32,000 nt of DNA, from positions 138,358 through 170,357 of the forward strand of contig JBHLKY010000005.1 of the NCBI GenBank assembly GCA_048886185.1, written 5' to 3'. Positions 8,389 through 18,442 of the stretch are shown in pieces; position 1 is the stretch's first letter, and each line of letters opens with the position of its first letter. The translations under genes were made by a program, and so were the position numbers. This DNA is from Candidatus Hermodarchaeota archaeon. GTDB taxonomy: Archaea; Asgardarchaeota; Heimdallarchaeia; Hodarchaeales; Hodarchaeaceae. The notes beneath the pieces were generated by a model. The model was not told the DNA's origin, searched no databases, and saw only the letters and a program-made list of their open reading frames with translations.

Positions 8389-10674
8389 TTAAAAGAATGA
8401 TTCCAAGGTCATATCTTTCTTGTGGAATTCAGGAGGGATCAAATTTTCATATGCTCGGAGAATTAGCTTCCGATACTCATTGACGTCATATTGCTCGTTT
8501 CCTCTTAGAAGCTGTTCTGCTTTCACACGTTTTTTCCAGTCTTTTGCCTGTGCATCAATAATAAGATAGCGAATTTTCACCCCAGGTTCGACATTGACCC
8601 CTAAAGCAGCCAACTGTTTAGCTGCAATTGCTTGGCGAGAATTGTTGACATACTCATCAGGGGCGCGTGAGGGGCGAATTGTTACAAACAATTCTTCATG
8701 AGGGATATTTCCAGCTTCTAGCTCCTCAGTACACCTTTTGATGAATCTTTTCGCCCGAAGACTAGCAAGTCGATACTCTTCTCGTGTTCGAGCTTTTGCT
8801 AGGATTTTTAGCATATTCATCTGTAATTTCTTGATAAAGGAGGGACTACTTGACTGGCGGATCTCAATACCACGGATACGAAATGTTCCGTCCGTTTTGA
8901 CTCCATAATACCGATTTAAGACTCCAATTTCGGGTTCATATCGTCGTGGAAGGAAAACCATCCAATGATAATCAGCGGAATGCTCGACAGGTAGTTTAAC
9001 TATGTTTGCCACCTCTTGACGTAATTCACGAGTCATCTCAGTCGGAACAGGTTCTTCATCAGAATTTTTCAACCAAACTGAATCAACGATCCCCGCAACC
9101 ACTTCTAAACCATACCTAGAGGCAAGTTGCTGAGTGAGAGTCAAAGCATGACGACCATAGGCGGATATTGTCTCATGTGACTCAATTCTACCAAAACGAG
9201 CGTTTCGATAACCTTGGTAACCGAAACAGCAAACAAGCAGCCACTTAAGCACCTTTTGACGGCGATCATAGATCGAATGTAAGTTTCGTTTAGCCTTGAA
9301 ATACTGACGACGATTTAAGATATTCTCTAATGAAAGACTCACTAATCCAGGTCTGCGAGTGCAAATGTGATATTCCGTGAGAGGGACTGGTTGAGCTTCT
9401 CTTGCCGTACAACACTTGCAGTTAACAGTTTCAGGGGACACATTCTTGTGTACCATTATATTAGGATACATGCTTAAGAAATCTAGTTCTGTAACATTCG
9501 CATGGAACCCCACTCTTGGAGAGAAGACCAAACCCCCAACATCTGATTGTAAACTCCAAGCAGGACGAAAAGACTCCGCATCAGCTTTCCTAGCGGGGAT
9601 TAAAATACCCTGATGGTAAGCTGTTCGCATTTGAACTGCTGAAAGCGTTGTACCAATTGTTCCTCTCGCGATGCGCTGAGGATCGCTGCATCCCAAACGA
9701 ACCAGTTCTTGAATGCCTTCTATATTACCATCTTTCCACATAAAAGAATTTCCGACATCATAATGATGTCGGCCTCCGTCTAGATAGACCCCAAACTGAG
9801 AGAAATACACTCGGCCATAGCTGACAAAACTATGCCCTCTCTGGCTTTTTACTTCTCTTTGCCCTTCTTTGTATCGTATATACCCCTGCTTCTCTTTATT
9901 GTACCGTAGATAACTACTTAATGTTCGTTTTCCACGACCAAGTCTTAAATTCCCTATTCCAGCCCTCACCGCACGATGAGCTATTATGGGGAAAAATGTG
10001 TCCCCACCCCGAGTGAACAGAATATCAGGGTCGTTTTTTTGGACATAATGCACGCAATCACGAATTAGATTTTCCTCGTTATCCTCTTCAAAAACAACAG
10101 GCTCTTCGTCCTGATCAATAACTGATTTTCGCAGAAGAAACTTGGTTATACGGTTTTCCCGCTTCTCGATAAGGTGTGGGTTTCTGAATATTGGCTGTAG
10201 CCAAAGCGTCTTGAACGGTACCGCCTGATAATCCATCTGTACATACGACTCAAGAAGATCCCAATTCTTCAGTTCCCCATTTGCCACTTTAATAGTTGCA
10301 TAAGCATAGGGAAAAAGGCCCGTTTGAAAGCAGAATTGTTGCCACAAACTCAAATCGGCGTTGTGCAGGTAGTCACTCCAATACTTTCGTAAATCCTCAT
10401 AGGTACTTCGGATTTTTTGAGGATTCACCTGGACACGGAAAACATCGGAAAGGGCATGGTCATGGATAGAGAGGTACTTCGAAACTTTTGTAACGTTTTC
10501 AATCTCTGGGTGACTAAGTAATTGTCTTTCTATTTGAGGGTCGTCTTTCGCCAGAAAAAATTCCGCAGTAAGAGGATAAAAAGTACGAATGGTTTTTTTT
10601 CCTGTAAGCCAGTATACGTTGACCCCCCAATCAGTAGCTTCGATTTCATGGAGCCAAGCACGGATCGGAGACAT
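8389..10674 (-). CDS. polB2: Family B DNA polymerase, PolB2/Dpo2 subgroup (degenerate exonuclease)
   Basis: Motif A ELDFLSMYP; motif B QKVLKWLLVCCFGYQG; motif C GIVDSVW (YGDTDS with first Asp lost); RGIEIR; SPETVNCKCC insert; no intact ExoI DxE. Confidence 0.9.
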   Translation of the reverse strand: MSPIRAWLHEIEATDWGVNVYWLTGKKTIRTFYPLTAEFFLAKDDPQIERQLLSHPEIENVTKVSKYLSIHDHALSDVFRVQVNPQKIRSTYEDLRKYWSDYLHNADLSLWQQFCFQTGLFPYAYATIKVANGELKNWDLLESYVQMDYQAVPFKTLWLQPIFRNPHLIEKRENRITKFLLRKSVIDQDEEPVVFEEDNEENLIRDCVHYVQKNDPDILFTRGGDTFFPIIAHRAVRAGIGNLRLGRGKRTLSSYLRYNKEKQGYIRYKEGQREVKSQRGHSFVSYGRVYFSQFGVYLDGGRHHYDVGNSFMWKDGNIEGIQELVRLGCSDPQRIARGTIGTTLSAVQMRTAYHQGILIPARKADAESFRPAWSLQSDVGGLVFSPRVGFHANVTELDFLSMYPNIMVHKNVSPETVNCKCCTAREAQPVPLTEYHICTRRPGLVSLSLENILNRRQYFKAKRNLHSIYDRRQKVLKWLLVCCFGYQGYRNARFGRIESHETISAYGRHALTLTQQLASRYGLEVVAGIVDSVWLKNSDEEPVPTEMTRELRQEVANIVKLPVEHSADYHWMVFLPRRYEPEIGVLNRYYGVKTDGTFRIRGIEIRQSSSPSFIKKLQMNMLKILAKARTREEYRLASLRAKRFIKRCTEELEAGNIPHEELFVTIRPSRAPDEYVNNSRQAIAAKQLAALGVNVEPGVKIRYLIIDAQAKDWKKRVKAEQLLRGNEQYDVNEYRKLILRAYENLIPPEFHKKDMTLESFF

Positions 10675-10991: not shown

Positions 10992-11798
10992 TCACCAAAA
11001 TTCTGTTAGAGGAATCTGTTGTTTCCCAATTTGTTGATGAGTAAGTGCCGCTTGGACTGGGGGGCCTCCCTTTTGAACAGTGAATAGGAGAGCATAGTCA
11101 CTTGAGGAATTCCGAGAGGCAGGAGAGGCTTCGACTCGAATAATATCTGTTGCAGCATGCGCAAAAAATGTTCCACCAAGTGGTTTCTGACTCCTTGGAG
11201 CATTTTCTGCTGTCATCAACCCGATTAAATCATTTTGAATTGTTAAACTCTTTAATTTCCCCACAGCCTGAGTTAATTCGAGAATAGAAGATACTACCGT
11301 TAATTTGTCGTACTCAAGATACTGTAGAGCCTCATCAGACAAATAAAGGGATGATATCTGAGGTACCAAGACTATACGAATACTAGGATTCGTGTCGATT
11401 AGTTTAGGCAACTTTTTGGTGAGAATTTCTGTCACTTGATGATAATTAAATGCACGTGCTAACTGAATGCGATCTAGTATCGATAACGGATCAAATCCCT
11501 GCTTTCTGGCTTCAAATGAGACATTGTAATAAGGAAACACATTGGCTCCATCAACAAACGCCAAGTCAGTTTCAGGGTTATTTGATAACAGCGAAACTGT
11601 GAGTTGAGCTATAAAGGTGCGTGCAACTTTGAGTGACAATTCTCCTTGAATCAAAGTTAAACTGCCTGGGTACAGTTTAATCACATCATCTAAGTGTGGT
11701 ATCCCGAGTCGTAAGTATTGCTGCATTTGCTGGTAGCGTGCATCAGCTGAGGTGAAAGTATGAGAAAATAAGCCACGATTCCGACAGATTTGGATCAT
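10992..11798 (-). CDS. Inactivated RadA/Rad51-like protein of the PolB2 cassette
   Basis: LGIPHLDDVI, SLTLIQG with Walker A lost, FVDGAN, RIQLARAFNYHQ, LGGTFFAH; first gene of the cassette. Confidence 0.85.
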   Translation of the reverse strand: MIQICRNRGLFSHTFTSADARYQQMQQYLRLGIPHLDDVIKLYPGSLTLIQGELSLKVARTFIAQLTVSLLSNNPETDLAFVDGANVFPYYNVSFEARKQGFDPLSILDRIQLARAFNYHQVTEILTKKLPKLIDTNPSIRIVLVPQISSLYLSDEALQYLEYDKLTVVSSILELTQAVGKLKSLTIQNDLIGLMTAENAPRSQKPLGGTFFAHAATDIIRVEASPASRNSSSDYALLFTVQKGGPPVQAALTHQQIGKQQIPLTEFW

Positions 11799-12016: not shown

Positions 12017-14864
12017 TCACTCAAGAACACAAATTTTAATCTCAAAAGGATCAAAAACCAATGTAGTTGAATCTTCTGTTAATTCTGTTTCTCCTTTTTT
12101 CGATCCGTCTATTTTGACCAGAGTACACTTTGTTATCGCAGAAGAAAATGTAATTTCAGCTGAAACAGTTTCATTCTGCAAATTAAACATAGTTACCCAT
12201 AATTTTTCATTACGTACTCGTAAGGAAGAAATCCTAATATTTGGATTATTTATGTAAATTAAAGGATAGAGTAAATCATCTGATCGTTCGTTCAAAGAGA
12301 ATTGAGTTGTTATTGGCTGCAGTGAAAAAGCCTCAGCATGATCCTCAGAATATGCTAATGGATCATCCTTTGAATGCAGTATTAGACTATATTCAAATGA
12401 ATACGTTGAATTTAGTTCTTGTGCACCTGGAGTAGCAATTCTTGGACCAGCATGTTCGGGCCTTTCAGGAATTCCAGAAAGTGAGAGCCACCCAACTGAA
12501 CGTACTAAGGTTAAAGCGAGTTGATTTCTGTTTACAAGTTCAATCTCTGGCAATCCTTTGTTCATTAAGGTAATAGCATATCGATTTAAATGATCCTCCA
12601 CTCTAATGTACCGTTTTTGAGGTTGGATTCCAGAAGGTTTTTCAATGAAAGTTTCATCACCAATAGGGCTACCAGATCTCTTAATACACCCAAAGTGCGT
12701 AGAAGTAAGAGTGTAATCTGTCTCAAATGGAAGGTTAAAACATACCCTTAGTCTATGATCCTTAGTAACATTTGTTAGGGTTGTTTTTAGATCAATTCTG
12801 GGAGAATCACGATAAAACTTGAAAATTGTTGTTATAGGTACTTTCTTTTTACCTATCCGTTTCTCTCTGGATTCATCAACTTCATAAAAGATTTCTATTA
12901 TCAAGGTTTGTTGAACCTCACATAATAAGGAACCAGATATTGTGACTGTCCTTTTCAGATCACTCACTTTAACGAATGCAGGACCCAATCGTCCAAATGT
13001 ATACTCATCTCCTCGGTCTCCCCAATCCTCAAACTGATGGAATTTCTGATAATTTTTCTTATTTTTCTTGTCATAAATATCAAAAGTTCCATCTCTGTTG
13101 AAAAGCAAATCATAGAAGGCATTACTCACACGATCTTTAGAAGCTTTAATGGAATTTGTTTGATTAATTTGTTTAATAGAGAAATCCGAGAGAATTAGTT
13201 TCGTAAAACTCCAAGGTTTCAAAGGAGCTAATGTTATGTATTTTTGTTCAAACTCTTTTGTGATTAATATATGGAATTTCTTGTACTTTTTACTATCGAT
13301 AACTTTTAATAGGTCCTTTTTCATTTCTCCCATATCAAGATCCCCCTCTGGTTTATCTCCGACGTTCATACGAACCTCGCATATTTCAGGATCATCTCCA
13401 TCAGATAATGAAGCTTTATTAACATAAAAGTTCATTAATCGCCTCCCTGGAAACATCTTCATTAATGCTCTCAGTTTAAGCCTACCAAGAGTCATCTCCC
13501 AAACAACATCAGTAGAAGATTGAAGTAGTTGTACCTCATAAATTTGTTTATCTATTTCAACTGATTTAACTGTAAAATCTCCAGAAACTTTAAACTCAAT
13601 ATTTCTTGGCATAGAGGTATTTGTTGGGTTGAAACAAAGGTATGATAGGTTAGTTGATGATTGCAATGTGTCATTTAAGGAAGTTAATGCTTTTTGAATA
13701 GCTATTTCTGCAAGAGATTCAGCCCAATAATAACGGAATCGCATTTCTTCATGAGTTTGGTCAATTGAACAACCACAAATCGAATCATGAGGTTGATTAC
13801 GTAAATACCACTTCCATGCTTGATTCAAATAAGCAGTTGGATAGCCATTATTTAGAAAATACCAAACGTAAGCATTTAATGGTTCTGCATAATGGACTAA
13901 CATGTCTTCTACTTTTTGATTCCACTGTTTGATCCACATCCTTGTTGAATAAGTGTCCTGTAATAGGTGTGCACGGGCGGCAGATCGAAATTCTCCAGTA
14001 AAAATAGGTGGGGAATAGTTTTCACGTTGCATTAATTGGATTAAACTCTGTACAAACTCATTTAAGACCCCAAGGGTTATCTCCACTCCATCAATGTCTA
14101 TATTTGAAAGATTAGCAGCCATTTGGGGATTGGGAAATTGATGATCAGTACCATTATGTAATAAGTATATAGGTAAAGGAGAGAAGGGAATCAATTGGCT
14201 AACAAGCTCCATTATTTCTGTAGTCAATTTTGAAGTCTCCTCTGGGAGCATAGCTGCGTTTCCATACCCAAAAGGAAGGTAAATTCCTAAAACAGAAGTT
14301 GTGGCTAAGGGATCACTTTTCCATATGAAAGGAACAGTGGTAATCTCAGGAGGTACTCCTCGCCAAACAACAACTGCCTCAAAATTTGTCAAATCACCGA
14401 TTAATTGGGGAATCACACGTGAATGACCAAACATATCGGGTAAATACCCTATTTGCATAAGTGGTATATTAAATTCTTTAGCTAGATCAAGACTATATTC
14501 AAGATTTCTTATAAGACTCTCTTGACCTACTAACCAAATGTCAGGAAGTAAGTACCAAGGTCCAACAGCAAGTTTCCCTTCCCTTATAAATTCTAATAGC
14601 TCTTCCTTCTTCTCTGGCCTAATTTCCAGGTAATCCTCTAAAACGATTGTTTGCCCATCAAACGTGAAATAAAAGTCTTGATTGTTTAAAATCTCTAACA
14701 ATTCATCAATCAAATTAACAAGCTTATATCGGAATTTTTGAAAAGGTAAATACCACTCTCTATTGGGTGTAAACTCACAAATGAGATCACATGTCCCAGT
14801 GAGTGTGAGGAGTGACAAAAATGTATTTTGCTTGATTTGAACTGTTATTTGTATCTGTGTCCAT
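12017..14864 (-). CDS. GH38 alpha-mannosidase (MngB-like), two exons: 14864-14793 and 14761-12017; 938 aa after splicing
   Basis: Exon 1 gives MDTDTNNSSNQAKYIFVTPHTHWD (24 codons, GGAG RBS-like element upstream). Exon 2 begins REWYLPF. Also FTFDGQ, GPWY, nucleophile GYLPDMFGH, NGTDHQ and QPHDSICGCS. The ORF-track start at TTG 14818 is out of frame with exon 1 and lacks HTHWD. Confidence 0.93.
14762..14792 (-). other. Candidate 31-nt bulge-helix-bulge (tRNA-type) mRNA intron
   Basis: Minus-strand insert ATGTGATCTCATTTGTGAGTTTACACCCAAT; central helix UGGG/CCCA; 3-nt bulges ACA and AUA; 10-position intron stem; exon stem CACUCAC/GAGAGUG; canonical cuts rejoin GAC|AGA in frame. Confidence 0.85.
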
Positions 14865-14897
14865 GTATTCGTATCTCCAAAGTTATTCTTATAACAA

Positions 14898-14977: not shown

Positions 14978-15970
14978 ATGCCAGCAAAAATTCTAATTGG
15001 GACAAGTGGATTTGGATATTCAGACTGGCAAGCTAGATATGAAAAAACTCGATTTCCTTTTTATCCTCAAAACTTAGATTCCCATCATCGCTTATCTTTT
15101 TATGCTGAAGTTTTTCCTACTGTGGAAATCAATACAACATTTTACCATTTTCCTCGTGCTTCAGTTGTGGATAAATGGGGACAACACGTTCCTAACGATT
15201 TTATTTTTGCATATAAGATTCCTCGTCATATTACACATCAGAAAAAACTTGATTTTAATCAAGGATACTGGGAAGAATTACGACCATTTTTGGATACTAT
15301 TTGCAGCGGTTTGGGTAGGAGTAAAACTGGGCCAGCACTACTACAATTACCACCTAAGTTTTCTGCTGACTATTTCAATCGTCTAGAAGTATTTCTGAAA
15401 TATTGGCCAAAAGACATTAGATTAGCAGTAGAGTTTCGCCACATTTCGTGGGTGGAACAAAAGCGACTTGATCAAACACTTTCACTATTATCCAAGCATA
15501 ATGCCGCTTATTGCATTGTTGATGAACCGTTGTTACCTCCAATAACACCAGTAACCGCTGATTTTTCATATATTCGATTCCATGGCCATGGTTTAAAACC
15601 TTGGTACAATTATCAATATAGTCTTGAAGAATTGACCCCTTGGGTATCGCGAATACGATCCCTAACTAGAAGTAAGGAATTGAAGGAAATCTTTACCTAT
15701 TTTAACAATCATCCACATGGTCATGCTCCTGCAAACGCACGACAATTAGCTATTCTTCTAAAGATTACACTAAAAAAGCCAGAGGATGTAAAGATGGCTA
15801 ATGTCAGGAGGAGGGCTGGGGATACTCCCCAACATTCATTAGAGAGCTTTTTAGATCTTCCATCTGTTGAATTAACCGATTATGTTCGATTTTGTTCCAA
15901 TTGTGGGAAAATGATCCTTAGAGATGACAATTTTTGTGAAAATTGTGGGCATCATCAGGAAAAGGATTAG
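14978..15970 (+). CDS. DUF72 (YecE-like) protein with C-terminal double zinc ribbon
   Basis: IGTSGFGYSDW, FPTVEINTTFYHFP, YKIPRHITH, LLQLPP, AVEFRH, YIRFHG, YFNNH; tail FCSNCG...FCENCG. Confidence 0.92.
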   Translation: MPAKILIGTSGFGYSDWQARYEKTRFPFYPQNLDSHHRLSFYAEVFPTVEINTTFYHFPRASVVDKWGQHVPNDFIFAYKIPRHITHQKKLDFNQGYWEELRPFLDTICSGLGRSKTGPALLQLPPKFSADYFNRLEVFLKYWPKDIRLAVEFRHISWVEQKRLDQTLSLLSKHNAAYCIVDEPLLPPITPVTADFSYIRFHGHGLKPWYNYQYSLEELTPWVSRIRSLTRSKELKEIFTYFNNHPHGHAPANARQLAILLKITLKKPEDVKMANVRRRAGDTPQHSLESFLDLPSVELTDYVRFCSNCGKMILRDDNFCENCGHHQEKD

Positions 15971-16237: not shown

Positions 16238-18442
16238 CCCCTGTCTTTAGAAATTTGTAGTGAATGCACTGATAAAGGTGAACAGATTTATCGCTGCAGT
16301 AAGTGCTCCGCTCCACTTTGTAGGCATAATATTCGGGTTCATGTATGCTCTTCTCCCACGCTTGGGTTACGTGGTAAGCAAAGTCCTCGTAGGGAAGGAG
16401 CAGATATTTCTGAAGCCGCATGGAAAAAGCTTCTGAAGCAAAAGAAAAAATATCAGGTAAAAATTCAAGAGGATTTAACATTTCTTATAGAGTTCCCATG
16501 GTATCCTTTCACACAGCTAAATGGCTGGATCCCAACCCGTCGTCCACACTACAAAGCGGAAAGAATTCGATCACTAAATGTAGAAGAATTATTCTCCTAT
16601 CTGGAAAAAGAAAATGATGTAAATTACGATCGTAAATTCTTTTATGATCCCTGGGCTCAAGAGCAATTCAATATTTGGCAGAGAAATTGGAAAAGACATA
16701 ATGGTTATTGGGTGCAAAATCGAACGCATAGAGCGACCAAGTTCGAGCTACAATTCCCACAATTAGCGTATGAAGACCTAGAAATCCTTCGAAAAGCAGG
16801 ATGTGAAATCGTTTTTGCTCCTGGTGCAAAGGAAAGACTGGAAAAACTGGAAAAGAAAGCCTCTAAGAATTTTAAGGTCACAGTTAAAACTGTGAAAGAT
16901 CGTTTAAGAATACATTGGAATGACGACTTCAATACATGGTTCCATTCTTTATTTACAGTTTTTGCCCGATTTATGGCCATTCGATCTGACGATGATCCCG
17001 AGGCAGACTATATTCCATGTATTAATCAGACAGGTCCTCAGGAAATACAAGTGGAATATTGGGCAGCATTTAGAGCTAATCACTTCTGGCAAGTAGTTAA
17101 TAAAACATTAAAGGAATCAAATGGTCCACCTCTCTTTGAATTAAATTATAAACCATTTAAACCTTCTTCCAAGTCATATGAATTTACAATTGCACCTAAT
17201 TACACCCTTCGATCCTATCAGCAGATAGCAATAGATAAATGGAAAGAGAATAGCTATTTTGGATCTATTCAGCTCCCAACTGGTGCTGGAAAAAGTTTAA
17301 TAGGTATTGACGCAATACGAGATGTTCATGAAAGAACCCTTATTTTAGTACCGAATCTTGCTCTCGTAGATCAATGGGTCGATTTTACTTCAAAATTCCT
17401 TTCAATTCCTGTTACTCGAATAGGTATATTTAATGGCCAGAAAAAAGCATTCCGTGAGTATCCCATTGTTATTTCGACATACCAATTGTTAAGTCAATAT
17501 TTACAAGATTTACAGGCCTATAGACACAAAGATAATCCTACTAAACCTCTCCGTGAGAAAGATCTAGTAGAAGATACAATCGGATTCTTTACTCACAAAT
17601 TTGGCCTTTTAATCGCAGATGAGTCTCATCACATTCAAGCAGAAACTTTTAGACAAATCGCGGTAGATCTAGAAATCCCCCGACGTCTAGCATTGTCTGC
17701 AACTATCGAAAAAAGCGTCCACAGCAGCTTAGTTATTGCAACTATGGGGCCTATAATCCACAAAATTTCTTATGGACTCCTTGCAAGAGAAGGATTCATT
17801 GCTCCAATTTACTTTAAACGAATTCACATCCCATTAACTGCTGATGAAAAGGGATATTTAAACCGTAAAGGGAAAAGATCTTATGGGAAAGTCTCCAGAC
17901 AGGCGAGTAATAAACTAGTGGCTATTCGAAAACTTCTAGAATCAACTGTGACATCGCAGACTCTCATCTTTACCAGTCGTATCAAACACGCGATGAGAAT
18001 CCATTCATATCTTAAAAAACATGGAATAGATACCACTGTACTTACAGGACATACAGTGATGAATGATCAGGAGCTTAATCTGTTATTGGATCAATTTAGG
18101 GCCAAAAAAATAAATACACTTGTACTTGTAAAAATGCTTAATGAAGGGTTTGATGCTCCTGCAGACACAATTATCATTGCATCTGGTACGAGAAACAGAA
18201 GAGAACAAATTCAACGAGTTGGTCGAGCTACTCGTCCTGGAAAAGTTGCAAAGCTGTTCGAATTAATCATTGACCCTCTAGAATTGGATTACGAGTATGA
18301 AGTAGCTCAAGCACGAGATATCTCAGATGTGATTGAACCTCATGTACAAGATCTTCTCTTACCCGCTGAAGTTAAAGAGGAGATTAATAAAGTAGTTAAT
18401 GATATCAAAATCGGTTTTTATAACAATAGATATGAAAACTAG
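16238..18442 (+). CDS. XPB/Rad25-like SF2 helicase with N-terminal zinc finger; frame is open from 16238, first standard start is GTG 16712, true start unresolved
   Basis: LRSYQ, LPTGAGKS, LIADESHH, LSAT, EGFDAP, QRVGR. The same frame continues 158 codons upstream with CSEC...YRCSKCSAPLCRHNIRVHVC. Confidence 0.85.
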   Translation, partial: PLSLEICSECTDKGEQIYRCSKCSAPLCRHNIRVHVCSSPTLGLRGKQSPRREGADISEAAWKKLLKQKKKYQVKIQEDLTFLIEFPWYPFTQLNGWIPTRRPHYKAERIRSLNVEELFSYLEKENDVNYDRKFFYDPWAQEQFNIWQRNWKRHNGYWVQNRTHRATKFELQFPQLAYEDLEILRKAGCEIVFAPGAKERLEKLEKKASKNFKVTVKTVKDRLRIHWNDDFNTWFHSLFTVFARFMAIRSDDDPEADYIPCINQTGPQEIQVEYWAAFRANHFWQVVNKTLKESNGPPLFELNYKPFKPSSKSYEFTIAPNYTLRSYQQIAIDKWKENSYFGSIQLPTGAGKSLIGIDAIRDVHERTLILVPNLALVDQWVDFTSKFLSIPVTRIGIFNGQKKAFREYPIVISTYQLLSQYLQDLQAYRHKDNPTKPLREKDLVEDTIGFFTHKFGLLIADESHHIQAETFRQIAVDLEIPRRLALSATIEKSVHSSLVIATMGPIIHKISYGLLAREGFIAPIYFKRIHIPLTADEKGYLNRKGKRSYGKVSRQASNKLVAIRKLLESTVTSQTLIFTSRIKHAMRIHSYLKKHGIDTTVLTGHTVMNDQELNLLLDQFRAKKINTLVLVKMLNEGFDAPADTIIIASGTRNRREQIQRVGRATRPGKVAKLFELIIDPLELDYEYEVAQARDISDVIEPHVQDLLLPAEVKEEINKVVNDIKIGFYNNRYEN

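What the first reader, a model, noticed from the sequence alone, without database searches (positions are those of the whole stretch)
14761..14864. Intron position makes splicing an obligatory on-switch for the enzyme
Seen in sequence: unspliced mRNA from ATG 14864 hits TGA at the second intron codon, giving a 25-aa peptide. The only alternative (TTG 14818, the ORF-track call) replaces HTHWD with unrelated residues. Established: the second His and the Asp of the GH38 HxHxD motif are Zn ligands and the Trp three residues later contacts the substrate (H90, D92, W95 in Drosophila Golgi mannosidase II). No active enzyme can be made without splicing. Inference: mannoside/glycan breakdown may be tied to tRNA-splicing capacity. 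After splicing, the exons leave a stem with a 7-nt loop (UGGGAC|A) with the junction at the position equivalent to tRNA 37/38, so the self-complementary His-Thr-His-Trp / Arg-Glu-Trp codons may have served as a landing site for a tRNA-derived intron.
Basis: partly seen in the sequence, partly recalled or inferred. Interest (0 to 1): 0.6.

Follow-up and report, generated by a model that had tools for sequence, protein, structure and literature searches.

The report
tRNA-type mini-intron splits Asgard mannosidase gene
A 31-base insert shaped like an archaeal tRNA intron breaks the only alpha-mannosidase gene of a Hodarchaeales (Asgard) archaeon inside its metal-binding motif, so the mRNA almost certainly has to be cut and rejoined by the tRNA-splicing enzymes before a working enzyme can be made; nothing shows that this step is used as a regulatory switch.

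Summary
On the minus strand, ATG 14864 opens a 24-codon exon ending in HTHWD. A 31-nt insert (14792-14762) follows, with TGA as its second codon. Exon 2 (14761-12017) then starts with REWYLPF in another frame.

Removing the 31 nt restores HTHWDREWY, which 32 intronless Asgard orthologues encode without a break. The insert folds as a bulge-helix-bulge motif: a 4-bp helix UGGG/CCCA between the 3-nt bulges AC|A and AU|A. The rule-predicted cuts fall exactly on the frame-restoring junction.

Ten copies in 8 of 22 genomes of one genus carry it, always 31 nt, at the same site, with a 24-codon exon 1. None was found in 61 genomes of 17 other genera. The genome encodes two EndA paralogues and RtcB.

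Carriers are not monophyletic, so the intron was lost precisely or exchanged at least twice.

"Obligatory" is right. "On-switch" and "tRNA-derived" are unsupported, and the 37/38-like 7-nt loop follows from BHB geometry in only one of two exon pairings.

No RNA data exist.

This scan has already noted similar roughly 30-nt mRNA mini-introns in Lokiarchaeia. In the papers I could search, only cbf5 is reported.

The parts
14875..14878 (-). Shine-Dalgarno-like GGAG, 10 nt upstream of the start codon
   Evidence: Read from the sequence. A GGAG or GGTG motif sits at the same distance in the other carriers and in intronless L005.
14793..14864 (-). Exon 1: ATG plus 23 codons, MDTDTNNSSNQAKYIFVTPHTHWD, carrying the GH38 H-x-H-x-D metal-ligand motif
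   Evidence: All 10 carriers have an ATG and exactly 24 codons. In the last 12 codons, pairwise differences by codon position are 0.087, 0.098 and 0.285, which means the exon is coding in this frame.
14762..14792 (-). 31-nt BHB intron AUGUGAUCUCAUUUGUGAGUUUACACCCAAU. It shifts the frame and is not coding.
   Evidence: It shows no codon periodicity (0.244, 0.231, 0.276). Variation is concentrated in the hairpin loop (0.56, against 0.17-0.24 in the stems).
14787..14789 (-). In-frame TGA, the second intron codon, which ends translation of the unspliced mRNA after 25 residues
   Evidence: Every one of the ten carriers has an exon-1-frame stop inside the intron: TGA at codon 2 or 6 in eight, TGA at codon 5 in L068, TAA at codon 2 in L069 (read).
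14795..14798 (-). Central helix H, 5' strand: UGGG, made of the Trp codon plus the first base of the Asp codon and therefore fixed by the protein sequence
   Evidence: It pairs with 14764-14767 (CCCA). All 10 carriers pair at all four positions, with only GC/GU and UA/UG changes.
14792..14794 (-). 5' bulge A-C|A; predicted cut between 14793 and 14792
   Evidence: MFE fold. The cut rule, between the second and third bulge bases, is from PMC2738675.
14768..14791 (-). Intron hairpin h': UGUGA.UCUCA / UGAG.UUACA around a 4-nt loop
   Evidence: 86% of cells are paired, with compensatory changes at columns 35-52 and 38-49.
14764..14767 (-). Central helix H, 3' strand: CCCA, inside the intron
14761..14763 (-). 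3' bulge A-U|A; predicted cut between 14762 and 14761
   Evidence: The cut gives the junction GAC|AGA, which reads D|R.
14750..14760 (-). 3' strand of the exon-exon outer helix (GAGAGUGGUAU, from the R-E-W-Y codons). It pairs either with 14799-14805 (proximal register, leaving a 7-nt loop after splicing) or with 14807-14818 (distal register).
14799..14818 (-). 5' strands of the two alternative exon-exon outer helices, from the Y-I-F-V-T-P-H-T-H codons
   Evidence: The distal helix has 11 pairs, 95.5% of cells paired and one compensatory pair.
12017..14761 (-). Exon 2: 914 codons plus stop, REWYLPF..., holding the rest of the GH38 enzyme, including the motifs aligned with the nucleophile Asp (LPDMFGHS) and His471/Asp472 (PHDSICG)
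14816..14818 (-). TTG used by the mechanical ORF call. It is probably not a real start.
   Evidence: Gene callers read through the intron in the same way in other carriers (P0002-P0012). In L008 that frame is closed by a TGA at the start of the intron.

Best explanation
This is a bulge-helix-bulge (archaeal tRNA-type) mini-intron inside the coding sequence of the only GH38 alpha-mannosidase gene of a Hodarchaeales-type Asgard archaeon.

Proposed mechanism:
1. The pre-mRNA folds so that exon 1 (the codons for ...T-P-H-T-H-W-D) pairs with exon 2 (R-E-W-Y) and with the 3' end of the intron.
2. This forms a 4-bp helix flanked by two 3-nt bulges.
3. The splicing endonuclease EndA cuts after the second base of each bulge, at GAC|A and AU|A.
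4. RtcB joins the exons, giving ...HTHWD-REWYLPF... in a single frame.

Without splicing, the ribosome stops after 25 residues. Any downstream start gives a protein that lacks two of the metal ligands.

Splicing is most likely constitutive. On this reading the intron is a tolerated passenger, held in place because the exon half of its splice signal is built from nearly invariant codons and because only an exact deletion can remove it.

Shown: the anatomy, conservation, intronless orthologues, host enzymes and loss pattern. Inferred: that cleavage and ligation actually occur, and that they are constitutive.
For: 1. Exact excision of 14792-14762 fuses two frames into HTHWDREWY, which 32 distinct intronless orthologues from Heimdall, Hod, Thor and Sigyn lineages encode without a break. 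It also completes the Pfam GH38N profile: exon 2 starts at profile position 13, and L005 matches from position 2.
2. The MFE fold gives a 4-bp helix with two 3-nt bulges. The published cut rule (PMC2738675) places both cuts on the frame-restoring junction.
3. Ten copies in 8 of 22 genomes of the genus, plus one metagenome contig, all have a 31-nt insert, a 24-codon exon 1 and an ATG start. At least three further read-through gene calls also have 11 codons between G and R.
4. Both exons evolve as coding sequence in their own, different frames. The intron shows no periodicity and varies most in its loop.
5. Pairing is kept in 92.4% of cells, against 32-56% in slid controls. The central helix is paired in 100% of cells, and three pairs show compensatory changes. 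A fold with the central helix and both bulges lies within 1.1 kcal/mol of the MFE in all eight carriers tested.
6. The genome encodes two EndA-family paralogues and RtcB.
7. Independent DNA contigs from a second study carry the insert without any indel.
8. Sister genes differ by presence or exact absence of the 31 nt. This fits loss through a spliced intermediate or exchange with an intronless allele.
9. The rest of the active site in exon 2 is intact, and this is the only true GH38 gene in the genome.
Against: - No RNA evidence of any kind. No RNA run holds the locus, so neither a spliced junction nor a circular intron has been seen.
- Covariation is weak. There are only 10 closely related sequences, and 27-45 of 500 shuffles reach the observed values.
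- The register of the exon-exon helix is ambiguous. In most carriers the favoured fold puts the 3' cut in a 9x3 internal loop, not in a strict bulge, so a relaxed-specificity enzyme is assumed.
- I did not verify that the two EndA paralogues form an (alpha-beta)2 enzyme.
- All the genomes are MAGs.
Confidence: 0.8

Rival explanations
1. Regulatory gate. The same BHB intron is spliced, but splicing efficiency is limiting and variable, set by EndA/RtcB capacity, by competition with ribosomes that enter exon 1 and melt the exon helix, or by temperature. Mannosidase output would then be switched by splicing.
For: - The intron lies only 72 nt into the ORF, and its splice motif uses translated exon-1 codons, so translation and folding could compete. 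This is inference.
- Every carrier has a stop in the exon-1 frame inside the intron.
- Length and position are invariant.
Against: - There are no expression data at all.
- The intron is absent from the sister genes L005 and L007 and from every orthologue found outside the genus. The enzyme therefore works without such a gate in close relatives.
- The hairpin loop, where a sensor or binding site would be expected, is the least conserved part (0.56 differences per site).
- An in-frame stop is expected by chance in an AT-rich 31-mer.
Confidence: 0.1
2. Translational recoding without splicing. The ribosome either bypasses the 31 nt (as with the 50-nt hop in phage T4 gene 60) or shifts +1 and reads through the insert.
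For: - A stop codon lies close after the Asp codon, and a hairpin follows, as at the gene 60 take-off site (own knowledge).
- The exon-2 frame is open through the insert in 9 of 10 carriers.
Against: - There is no matching landing codon. The last three intron bases are AAU, AAC, AAA or GAU, and only one carrier matches GAY.
- A +1 shift would insert about 10 variable residues between the Asp ligand and the stacking Trp.
- In L008 the exon-2 frame is closed by a TGA at the start of the insert.
- The insert shows no codon periodicity.
- The exact BHB geometry would be an unexplained coincidence (about 1.9e-5 per site).
Confidence: 0.03
3. The gene is inactivated or shortened. The insert is a disabling insertion, and the cell makes either nothing useful or an N-terminally truncated, non-catalytic GH38-like protein from a downstream start.
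For: - Automatic gene calls all use downstream or read-through starts.
- No RNA or protein data exist.
Against: - Exon 1 keeps its ATG, an SD-like motif, 24 codons and the HTHWD motif under purifying selection in 10 carriers.
- Exon 2 is intact, with its catalytic motifs, in all carriers.
- The insert length never drifts from 31 nt.
- The alternative starts are not conserved.
Confidence: 0.05

Closest known systems
cbf5 pre-mRNA intron of Sulfolobales and Desulfurococcales (Watanabe 2002; Yoshinari 2006; Yokobori 2009, PMC2738675)
   Same: - A BHB-type intron inside a protein-coding sequence.
- Cut sites between the second and third bulge bases.
- A host with a hetero-oligomeric EndA.
- Gene callers misread it.
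- One gain followed by lineage-specific precise losses (compared here).
   Different: - A different gene (a glycoside hydrolase, not an RNA-modification enzyme) and a different phylum (Asgard/Hodarchaeales, not Thermoproteota).
- Here the motif around the 5' cut is canonical.
- The intron has the size and hairpin design of the host's own tRNA introns.
- It lies 72 nt from the start codon, inside a catalytic motif.
- Splicing of cbf5 was shown experimentally; splicing here was not.
BHB intron in the 5' UTR of HVO_1309 mRNA, Haloferax volcanii (Schwarz 2020, PMC7714728)
   Same: An mRNA substrate of the tRNA-splicing endonuclease. Its removal appears to matter for expression.
   Different: That intron lies in the untranslated leader and does not interrupt a reading frame. 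The one here breaks the frame within an active-site motif.
Heavily interrupted tRNA genes of Asgard archaea (Valentin-Alvarado 2024, PMC11291895; bioRxiv 10.64898/2026.10.13.758758)
   Same: - The same predicted machinery and motif.
- The host's aragorn-called tRNA introns peak at 30-31 nt (5 of 21), with one hairpin closed by the 4-bp helix, as here.
- That preprint also reports repeated gains with no identified route of arrival.
   Different: The host RNA is a messenger, not a tRNA. No sequence similarity to any tRNA intron or other site in the genome was found.
HAC1/XBP1 unconventional splicing (Ire1 endonuclease plus tRNA ligase or RtcB; own knowledge)
   Same: It works alike in three respects: a short frame-shifting intron (26 nt in XBP1) is removed without a spliceosome, the ends are joined by the tRNA ligase, and only the spliced mRNA gives the active protein. 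This is the known example of such splicing used as a true on-switch.
   Different: The endonuclease there is the stress-activated Ire1, which recognises two 7-nt-loop hairpins. Regulation there is demonstrated; here EndA is a housekeeping enzyme and no regulation is shown. The two are not homologous systems at the endonuclease step.

Membership tests
Archaeal BHB (EndA-spliced) intron | [quoted passage not shown] | tested here: met
   The MFE fold shows UGGG/CCCA with the bulges ACA and AUA. The central helix is paired in 100% of cells across 10 carriers. A fold with the central helix and both bulges lies within 1.1 kcal/mol of the MFE in all 8 carriers folded.
Archaeal BHB (EndA-spliced) intron | Cuts between the second and third bulge bases give a functional joined RNA | tested here: met
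   The rule is from PMC2738675. The predicted cuts at 14793|14792 and 14762|14761 give GAC|AGA, which reads HTHWD|REW. This is identical to the intronless orthologues and completes the Pfam profile.
Archaeal BHB (EndA-spliced) intron | Flanking helices: h (exon-exon) and h' (within the intron) | tested here: met
   h' has 10 pairs with 86% of cells paired and 2 compensatory pairs. h exists in two registers, proximal (6 pairs) and distal (11 pairs, 95.5% paired). With the distal register the 3' cut lies in a 9x3 internal loop, which is a relaxed motif.
Archaeal BHB (EndA-spliced) intron | The host encodes the splicing endonuclease and the RtcB ligase | tested here: met
   PF01974 gives two hits at 93.8 and 58.9 bits. 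PF01139 gives 533.6 bits. An alpha-beta heteromer is assumed from the two paralogues; I did not verify it.
Archaeal BHB (EndA-spliced) intron | A spliced RNA or circular intron observed, or in vitro cleavage by EndA | not testable with these tools
   No RNA run holds the locus. The runs laid were DNA contigs only.
Glycoside hydrolase family 38 (alpha-mannosidase) | N-terminal, middle and C-terminal GH38 domains | tested here: met
   PF01074, PF09261 and PF07748 all score above their cut-offs. The best PDB relatives are 5kbp, 3lvt and 2wyh.
Glycoside hydrolase family 38 (alpha-mannosidase) | The metal ligands and nucleophile: H-x-H-x-D, the nucleophile Asp, and H-D in the middle domain | tested here: met
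   HTHWD is in exon 1. LPDMFGHS and PHDSICG in exon 2 align with the same motifs in 5kbp. Residue roles are from PMC13204073. The full set is present only in the spliced product.
Regulated unconventional splicing switch (HAC1/XBP1-like) | A spliced fraction that changes with a signal | not testable with these tools
   No transcript data exist. The patchy presence among sister genes argues against a conserved switch but does not test it.

The most novel reading that the evidence does not exclude
The 31-mer is one of a class of roughly 30-nt BHB mini-introns that spread into protein-coding genes of Asgard archaea. Earlier notes of this scan report them in Lokiarchaeia. On this reading they settle where the exon codons already supply a helix and half of the splice motif, and here splicing competes with early translation, so that mannosidase output depends on tRNA-splicing capacity. 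That would mean the closest archaeal relatives of eukaryotes routinely splice, and can gate, messenger RNAs with the tRNA-splicing machinery.
Probability: 0.15. Interest if true: 0.85.

Novelty: new member of a known kind. Interest (0 to 1): 0.6.

Why it matters
In the papers I could search, splicing of an archaeal coding sequence by the tRNA endonuclease is documented for one gene only, cbf5, in Crenarchaeota.

This is a well-supported second kind of host gene, in Hodarchaeales, the Asgard group placed closest to eukaryotes. It shows the same gain-and-precise-loss dynamics.

- It shows that Asgard gene calls can be wrong at such sites. Every database entry for the carriers has a false N-terminus.
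- It gives a short, cheap test object for mRNA splicing in Asgard archaea: an 85-nt transcript with known cut sites and an enzyme with a colour assay.
- It shows how conserved protein motifs can supply the exon half of a splice signal.

Tried and rejected
- **RNA evidence.** No RNA holder is listed for the locus. The runs laid were DNA contigs, which only confirm the insert as DNA.
- **More carrier DNA.** DNA for further carriers seen as read-through gene calls (P0003, P0007-P0010) could not be fetched, and covariation stayed at 10 sequences.
- **Sibling copies.** A covariance model of the intron with its flanks (R1) finds only itself in the genome at E<=10. Elsewhere it finds only the orthologous sites: 8 of 22 genomes of the genus and none of the 61 other genomes of the class. 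blastn-short with eight introns gives only chance matches; the best, 15 nt at C9:160142, lies in uninterrupted coding sequence.
- **Other mRNA introns in this genome.** A scan for BHB motifs (L 24-39, not a multiple of 3) that fuse two open frames gave 110 hits, against 115 with a non-pairing null. There is no excess, so the scan is uninformative. A few real sites could be hidden among the hits.
- **Rejected readings.** Ribosomal hopping or a +1 frameshift, a pseudogene, and an assembly artefact were all considered and rejected (see the rival explanations; for the artefact).
- **Metagenome pattern scan.** It returned one false positive (L055), one near-duplicate (L057) and one new carrier (L056).
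- **Rfam.** No family matched anywhere in the window.
Full report
**Observation.** All coordinates are on the minus strand.
- ATG 14864 opens MDTDTNNSSNQAKYIFVTPHTHWD. The next two codons are ATG and TGA, so unspliced translation ends after 25 residues.
- From 14761 a different frame reads REWYLPF... for 914 codons. It carries the three GH38 Pfam domains, but the N-terminal domain match begins only at profile position 13.
- The mechanical ORF call starts at TTG 14818 and reads through the insert.
The spacing H-x-D-x-x-W matches H-W-D|R-E-W here.
- The insert therefore sits between the Asp ligand and the substrate-stacking Trp.
- The motifs in exon 2 that align with the nucleophile Asp and with the His471/Asp472 pair are intact.

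**What the insert is.** The 31 nt at 14792-14762 fold, in the plain MFE structure, into the following parts:
- a 4-bp helix (UGGG 14798-14795 with CCCA 14767-14764);
- a 3-nt bulge ACA on the 5' strand and a 3-nt bulge AUA on the 3' strand;
- an inner hairpin;
- an outer helix made of exon 1 and exon 2.

This is the bulge-helix-bulge motif of archaeal introns. The published rule, that cuts fall between the second and third bulge bases (PMC2738675), gives GAC|A and AU|A. That is exactly the excision which restores HTHWD-REW. My own BHB criteria are met at about 1.9e-5 of (position, length, topology) combinations in this genome, whereas here the boundaries are fixed independently by homology.

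**Comparative evidence.**
- The genome is a 4.84-Mb, 35% GC Asgard MAG of the Hodarchaeota/Hodarchaeales type, from sediment.
- Thirty-two distinct orthologues from Heimdall, Hod, Thor and Sigyn MAGs encode HTHWDREWY (or a close variant) without a break. In one of them the Pfam match starts at profile position 2.
- Ten copies carry a 31-nt insert at the identical site. They come from 8 of the 22 genomes of the window's genus, plus one metagenome contig.
- None was found in the 61 genomes of the 17 other genera of the class that were searched.
- At least three further carriers appear in the protein database as read-through gene calls with the same 11 codons between G and R.
- All ten carriers keep an ATG, an SD-like GGAG or GGTG motif, a 24-codon exon 1 and a 31-nt insert.
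- The last 12 codons of exon 1 differ mostly at third positions (0.087, 0.098, 0.285), and exon 2 likewise.
- The insert shows no periodicity, and its variation is highest in the hairpin loop (0.56, against 0.17-0.24 in the stems).
- Two exons under purifying selection in two different frames, around a non-coding structured spacer of fixed length, is what an obligatorily spliced intron predicts.
- DNA contigs from a second study carry the insert without any indel, so it is not an assembly artefact.

**Structure statistics and a caveat.**
- On the ten carriers 92.4% of cells pair, against 32-56% when partners are slid.
- The central helix pairs in every cell, with GC/GU and UA/UG changes only.
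- Three pairs show compensatory changes (columns 11-67, 35-52 and 38-49).
- With so few close relatives the shuffle controls are only mildly exceeded (27-45 of 500), so covariation supports the fold but does not prove it.
- The exon-exon helix is ambiguous.
- In the other seven carriers folded, a distal helix (14818-14807 with 14760-14750; codons Y-I-T-P with R-E-W-Y) is much more stable. That helix puts the 3' cut in a 9x3 internal loop.
- In either register, the central helix and both 3-nt bulges stay within 1.1 kcal/mol of the MFE.

**Machinery.** The genome has two EndA-family genes and one RtcB. Two paralogues fit the heteromeric (alpha-beta)2 enzyme. That type is linked to relaxed motifs and to cbf5 splicing and has been reported for most Asgard genomes. 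I did not verify subunit roles.

**History.**
- On a tree of the exon-2 proteins the carriers are not one clade.
- The grouping (L004 with intron, (L005 without, (L006 with, L007 without))) has 100/100 support.
- The AU test rejects monophyly of the carriers (p = 6e-5). At least three changes are needed.
- Where the intron is absent, the absence is exact to the base.
- L005 and L007 share about 80% identical upstream flanks, while the flank of L006 is unrelated. The break lies at the 5' end of the gene.
- Exchange of the 5' segment between alleles is therefore as likely as independent deletions.
- This mirrors the gain and loss of the cbf5 intron.

**The interpretation.**
- "Obligatory" is right. 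This is the only true GH38 gene in the genome, and no unspliced product can hold the His and Asp ligands.
- "On-switch" has no support. There are no transcript data, the intron is dispensable in sister genes and absent outside one genus, and its loop is its least conserved part.
- The tRNA 37/38 likeness is a geometric consequence of any BHB of this orientation, and it holds for one register only.
- The "landing site" idea is partly borne out. The central-helix strand UGGG is fixed by the Trp and Asp codons. Intronless orthologues already pair at 4.5 of 6 (proximal) and 8.2 of 11 (distal) exon positions. Carriers reach 5.5 and 10.6, with CAC in 8 of 8 carriers compared against 9 of 32 intronless genes (the lineages are not independent).
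- "tRNA-derived" is not supported by sequence. Only the size and design match: 30-31 nt is the commonest class among the aragorn-called host tRNA introns, and those have the same single hairpin.

**Rivals.**
- Ribosomal hopping lacks a matching landing codon.
- A +1 shift would insert about 10 variable residues into the active site, and the frame it needs is closed in L008.
- A pseudogene does not fit the selection seen on both exons.

**Known comparators and novelty.**
- The papers I could search report one coding-sequence BHB intron (cbf5) and one 5' UTR case in Haloferax. I found none for Asgard mRNAs.
- Earlier notes of this scan describe similar roughly 30-nt mRNA mini-introns in Lokiarchaeia genomes, and another first-stage note flags this same stretch. 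I did not test the Lokiarchaeia notes.
- My crude genome-wide scan for further sites in this genome showed no excess over a null: 110 hits against 115.

Noticed in passing
proteins P0002-P0012: Public gene calls for every intron carrier start inside or upstream of the intron in the exon-2 frame. They therefore carry false N-termini such as MYISLLILTGTCGIIREFTPN and lack HTHWD. Several are named only as 'GH38 C-terminal domain-containing protein'.
   Followed up: partly
L006 compared with L005 and L007, from about 90-150 nt upstream of the REW codon: The upstream flank of intron-bearing L006 is unrelated to the flank shared by its intronless relatives L005 and L007 (about 40% against about 80% identity). 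The breakpoint lies at the 5' end of the gene. This suggests recombination or relocation coupled to the presence or absence of the intron.
   Followed up: partly
G005: L009 (C201) and L069 (C341, contig end): One MAG holds two intron-bearing copies that differ by one intron base (G to A at column 35, which keeps the pair) and in exon 1. They could be a duplication, strain variants, or a mixed bin.
   Followed up: no
window 8389-10674, 10992-11798, 14978-15970 and 16712-18442: The mannosidase gene sits among unrelated genes: a family B DNA polymerase, a weak RadA/Rad51-like protein, DUF72 with a zinc ribbon, and an XPB/Rad25-like helicase. There is no glycan-use cluster, so the gene looks monocistronic.
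   Followed up: no
genome contigs C3, C8, C11 and C14: aragorn finds only 32 tRNAs, 21 of them with introns, and makes odd calls: three 'tRNA-Pyl(cta)', plus Tyr(ata) and His(atg). These are probably multi-intron tRNA genes that were misread.
   Followed up: no
G000:C4:94921-95280: A second, sub-threshold GH38N-like match (20.6 bits) lies in a 713-aa open frame. It may be a distant relative of the fold and is not a second GH38 enzyme by Pfam's cut-off.
   Followed up: no
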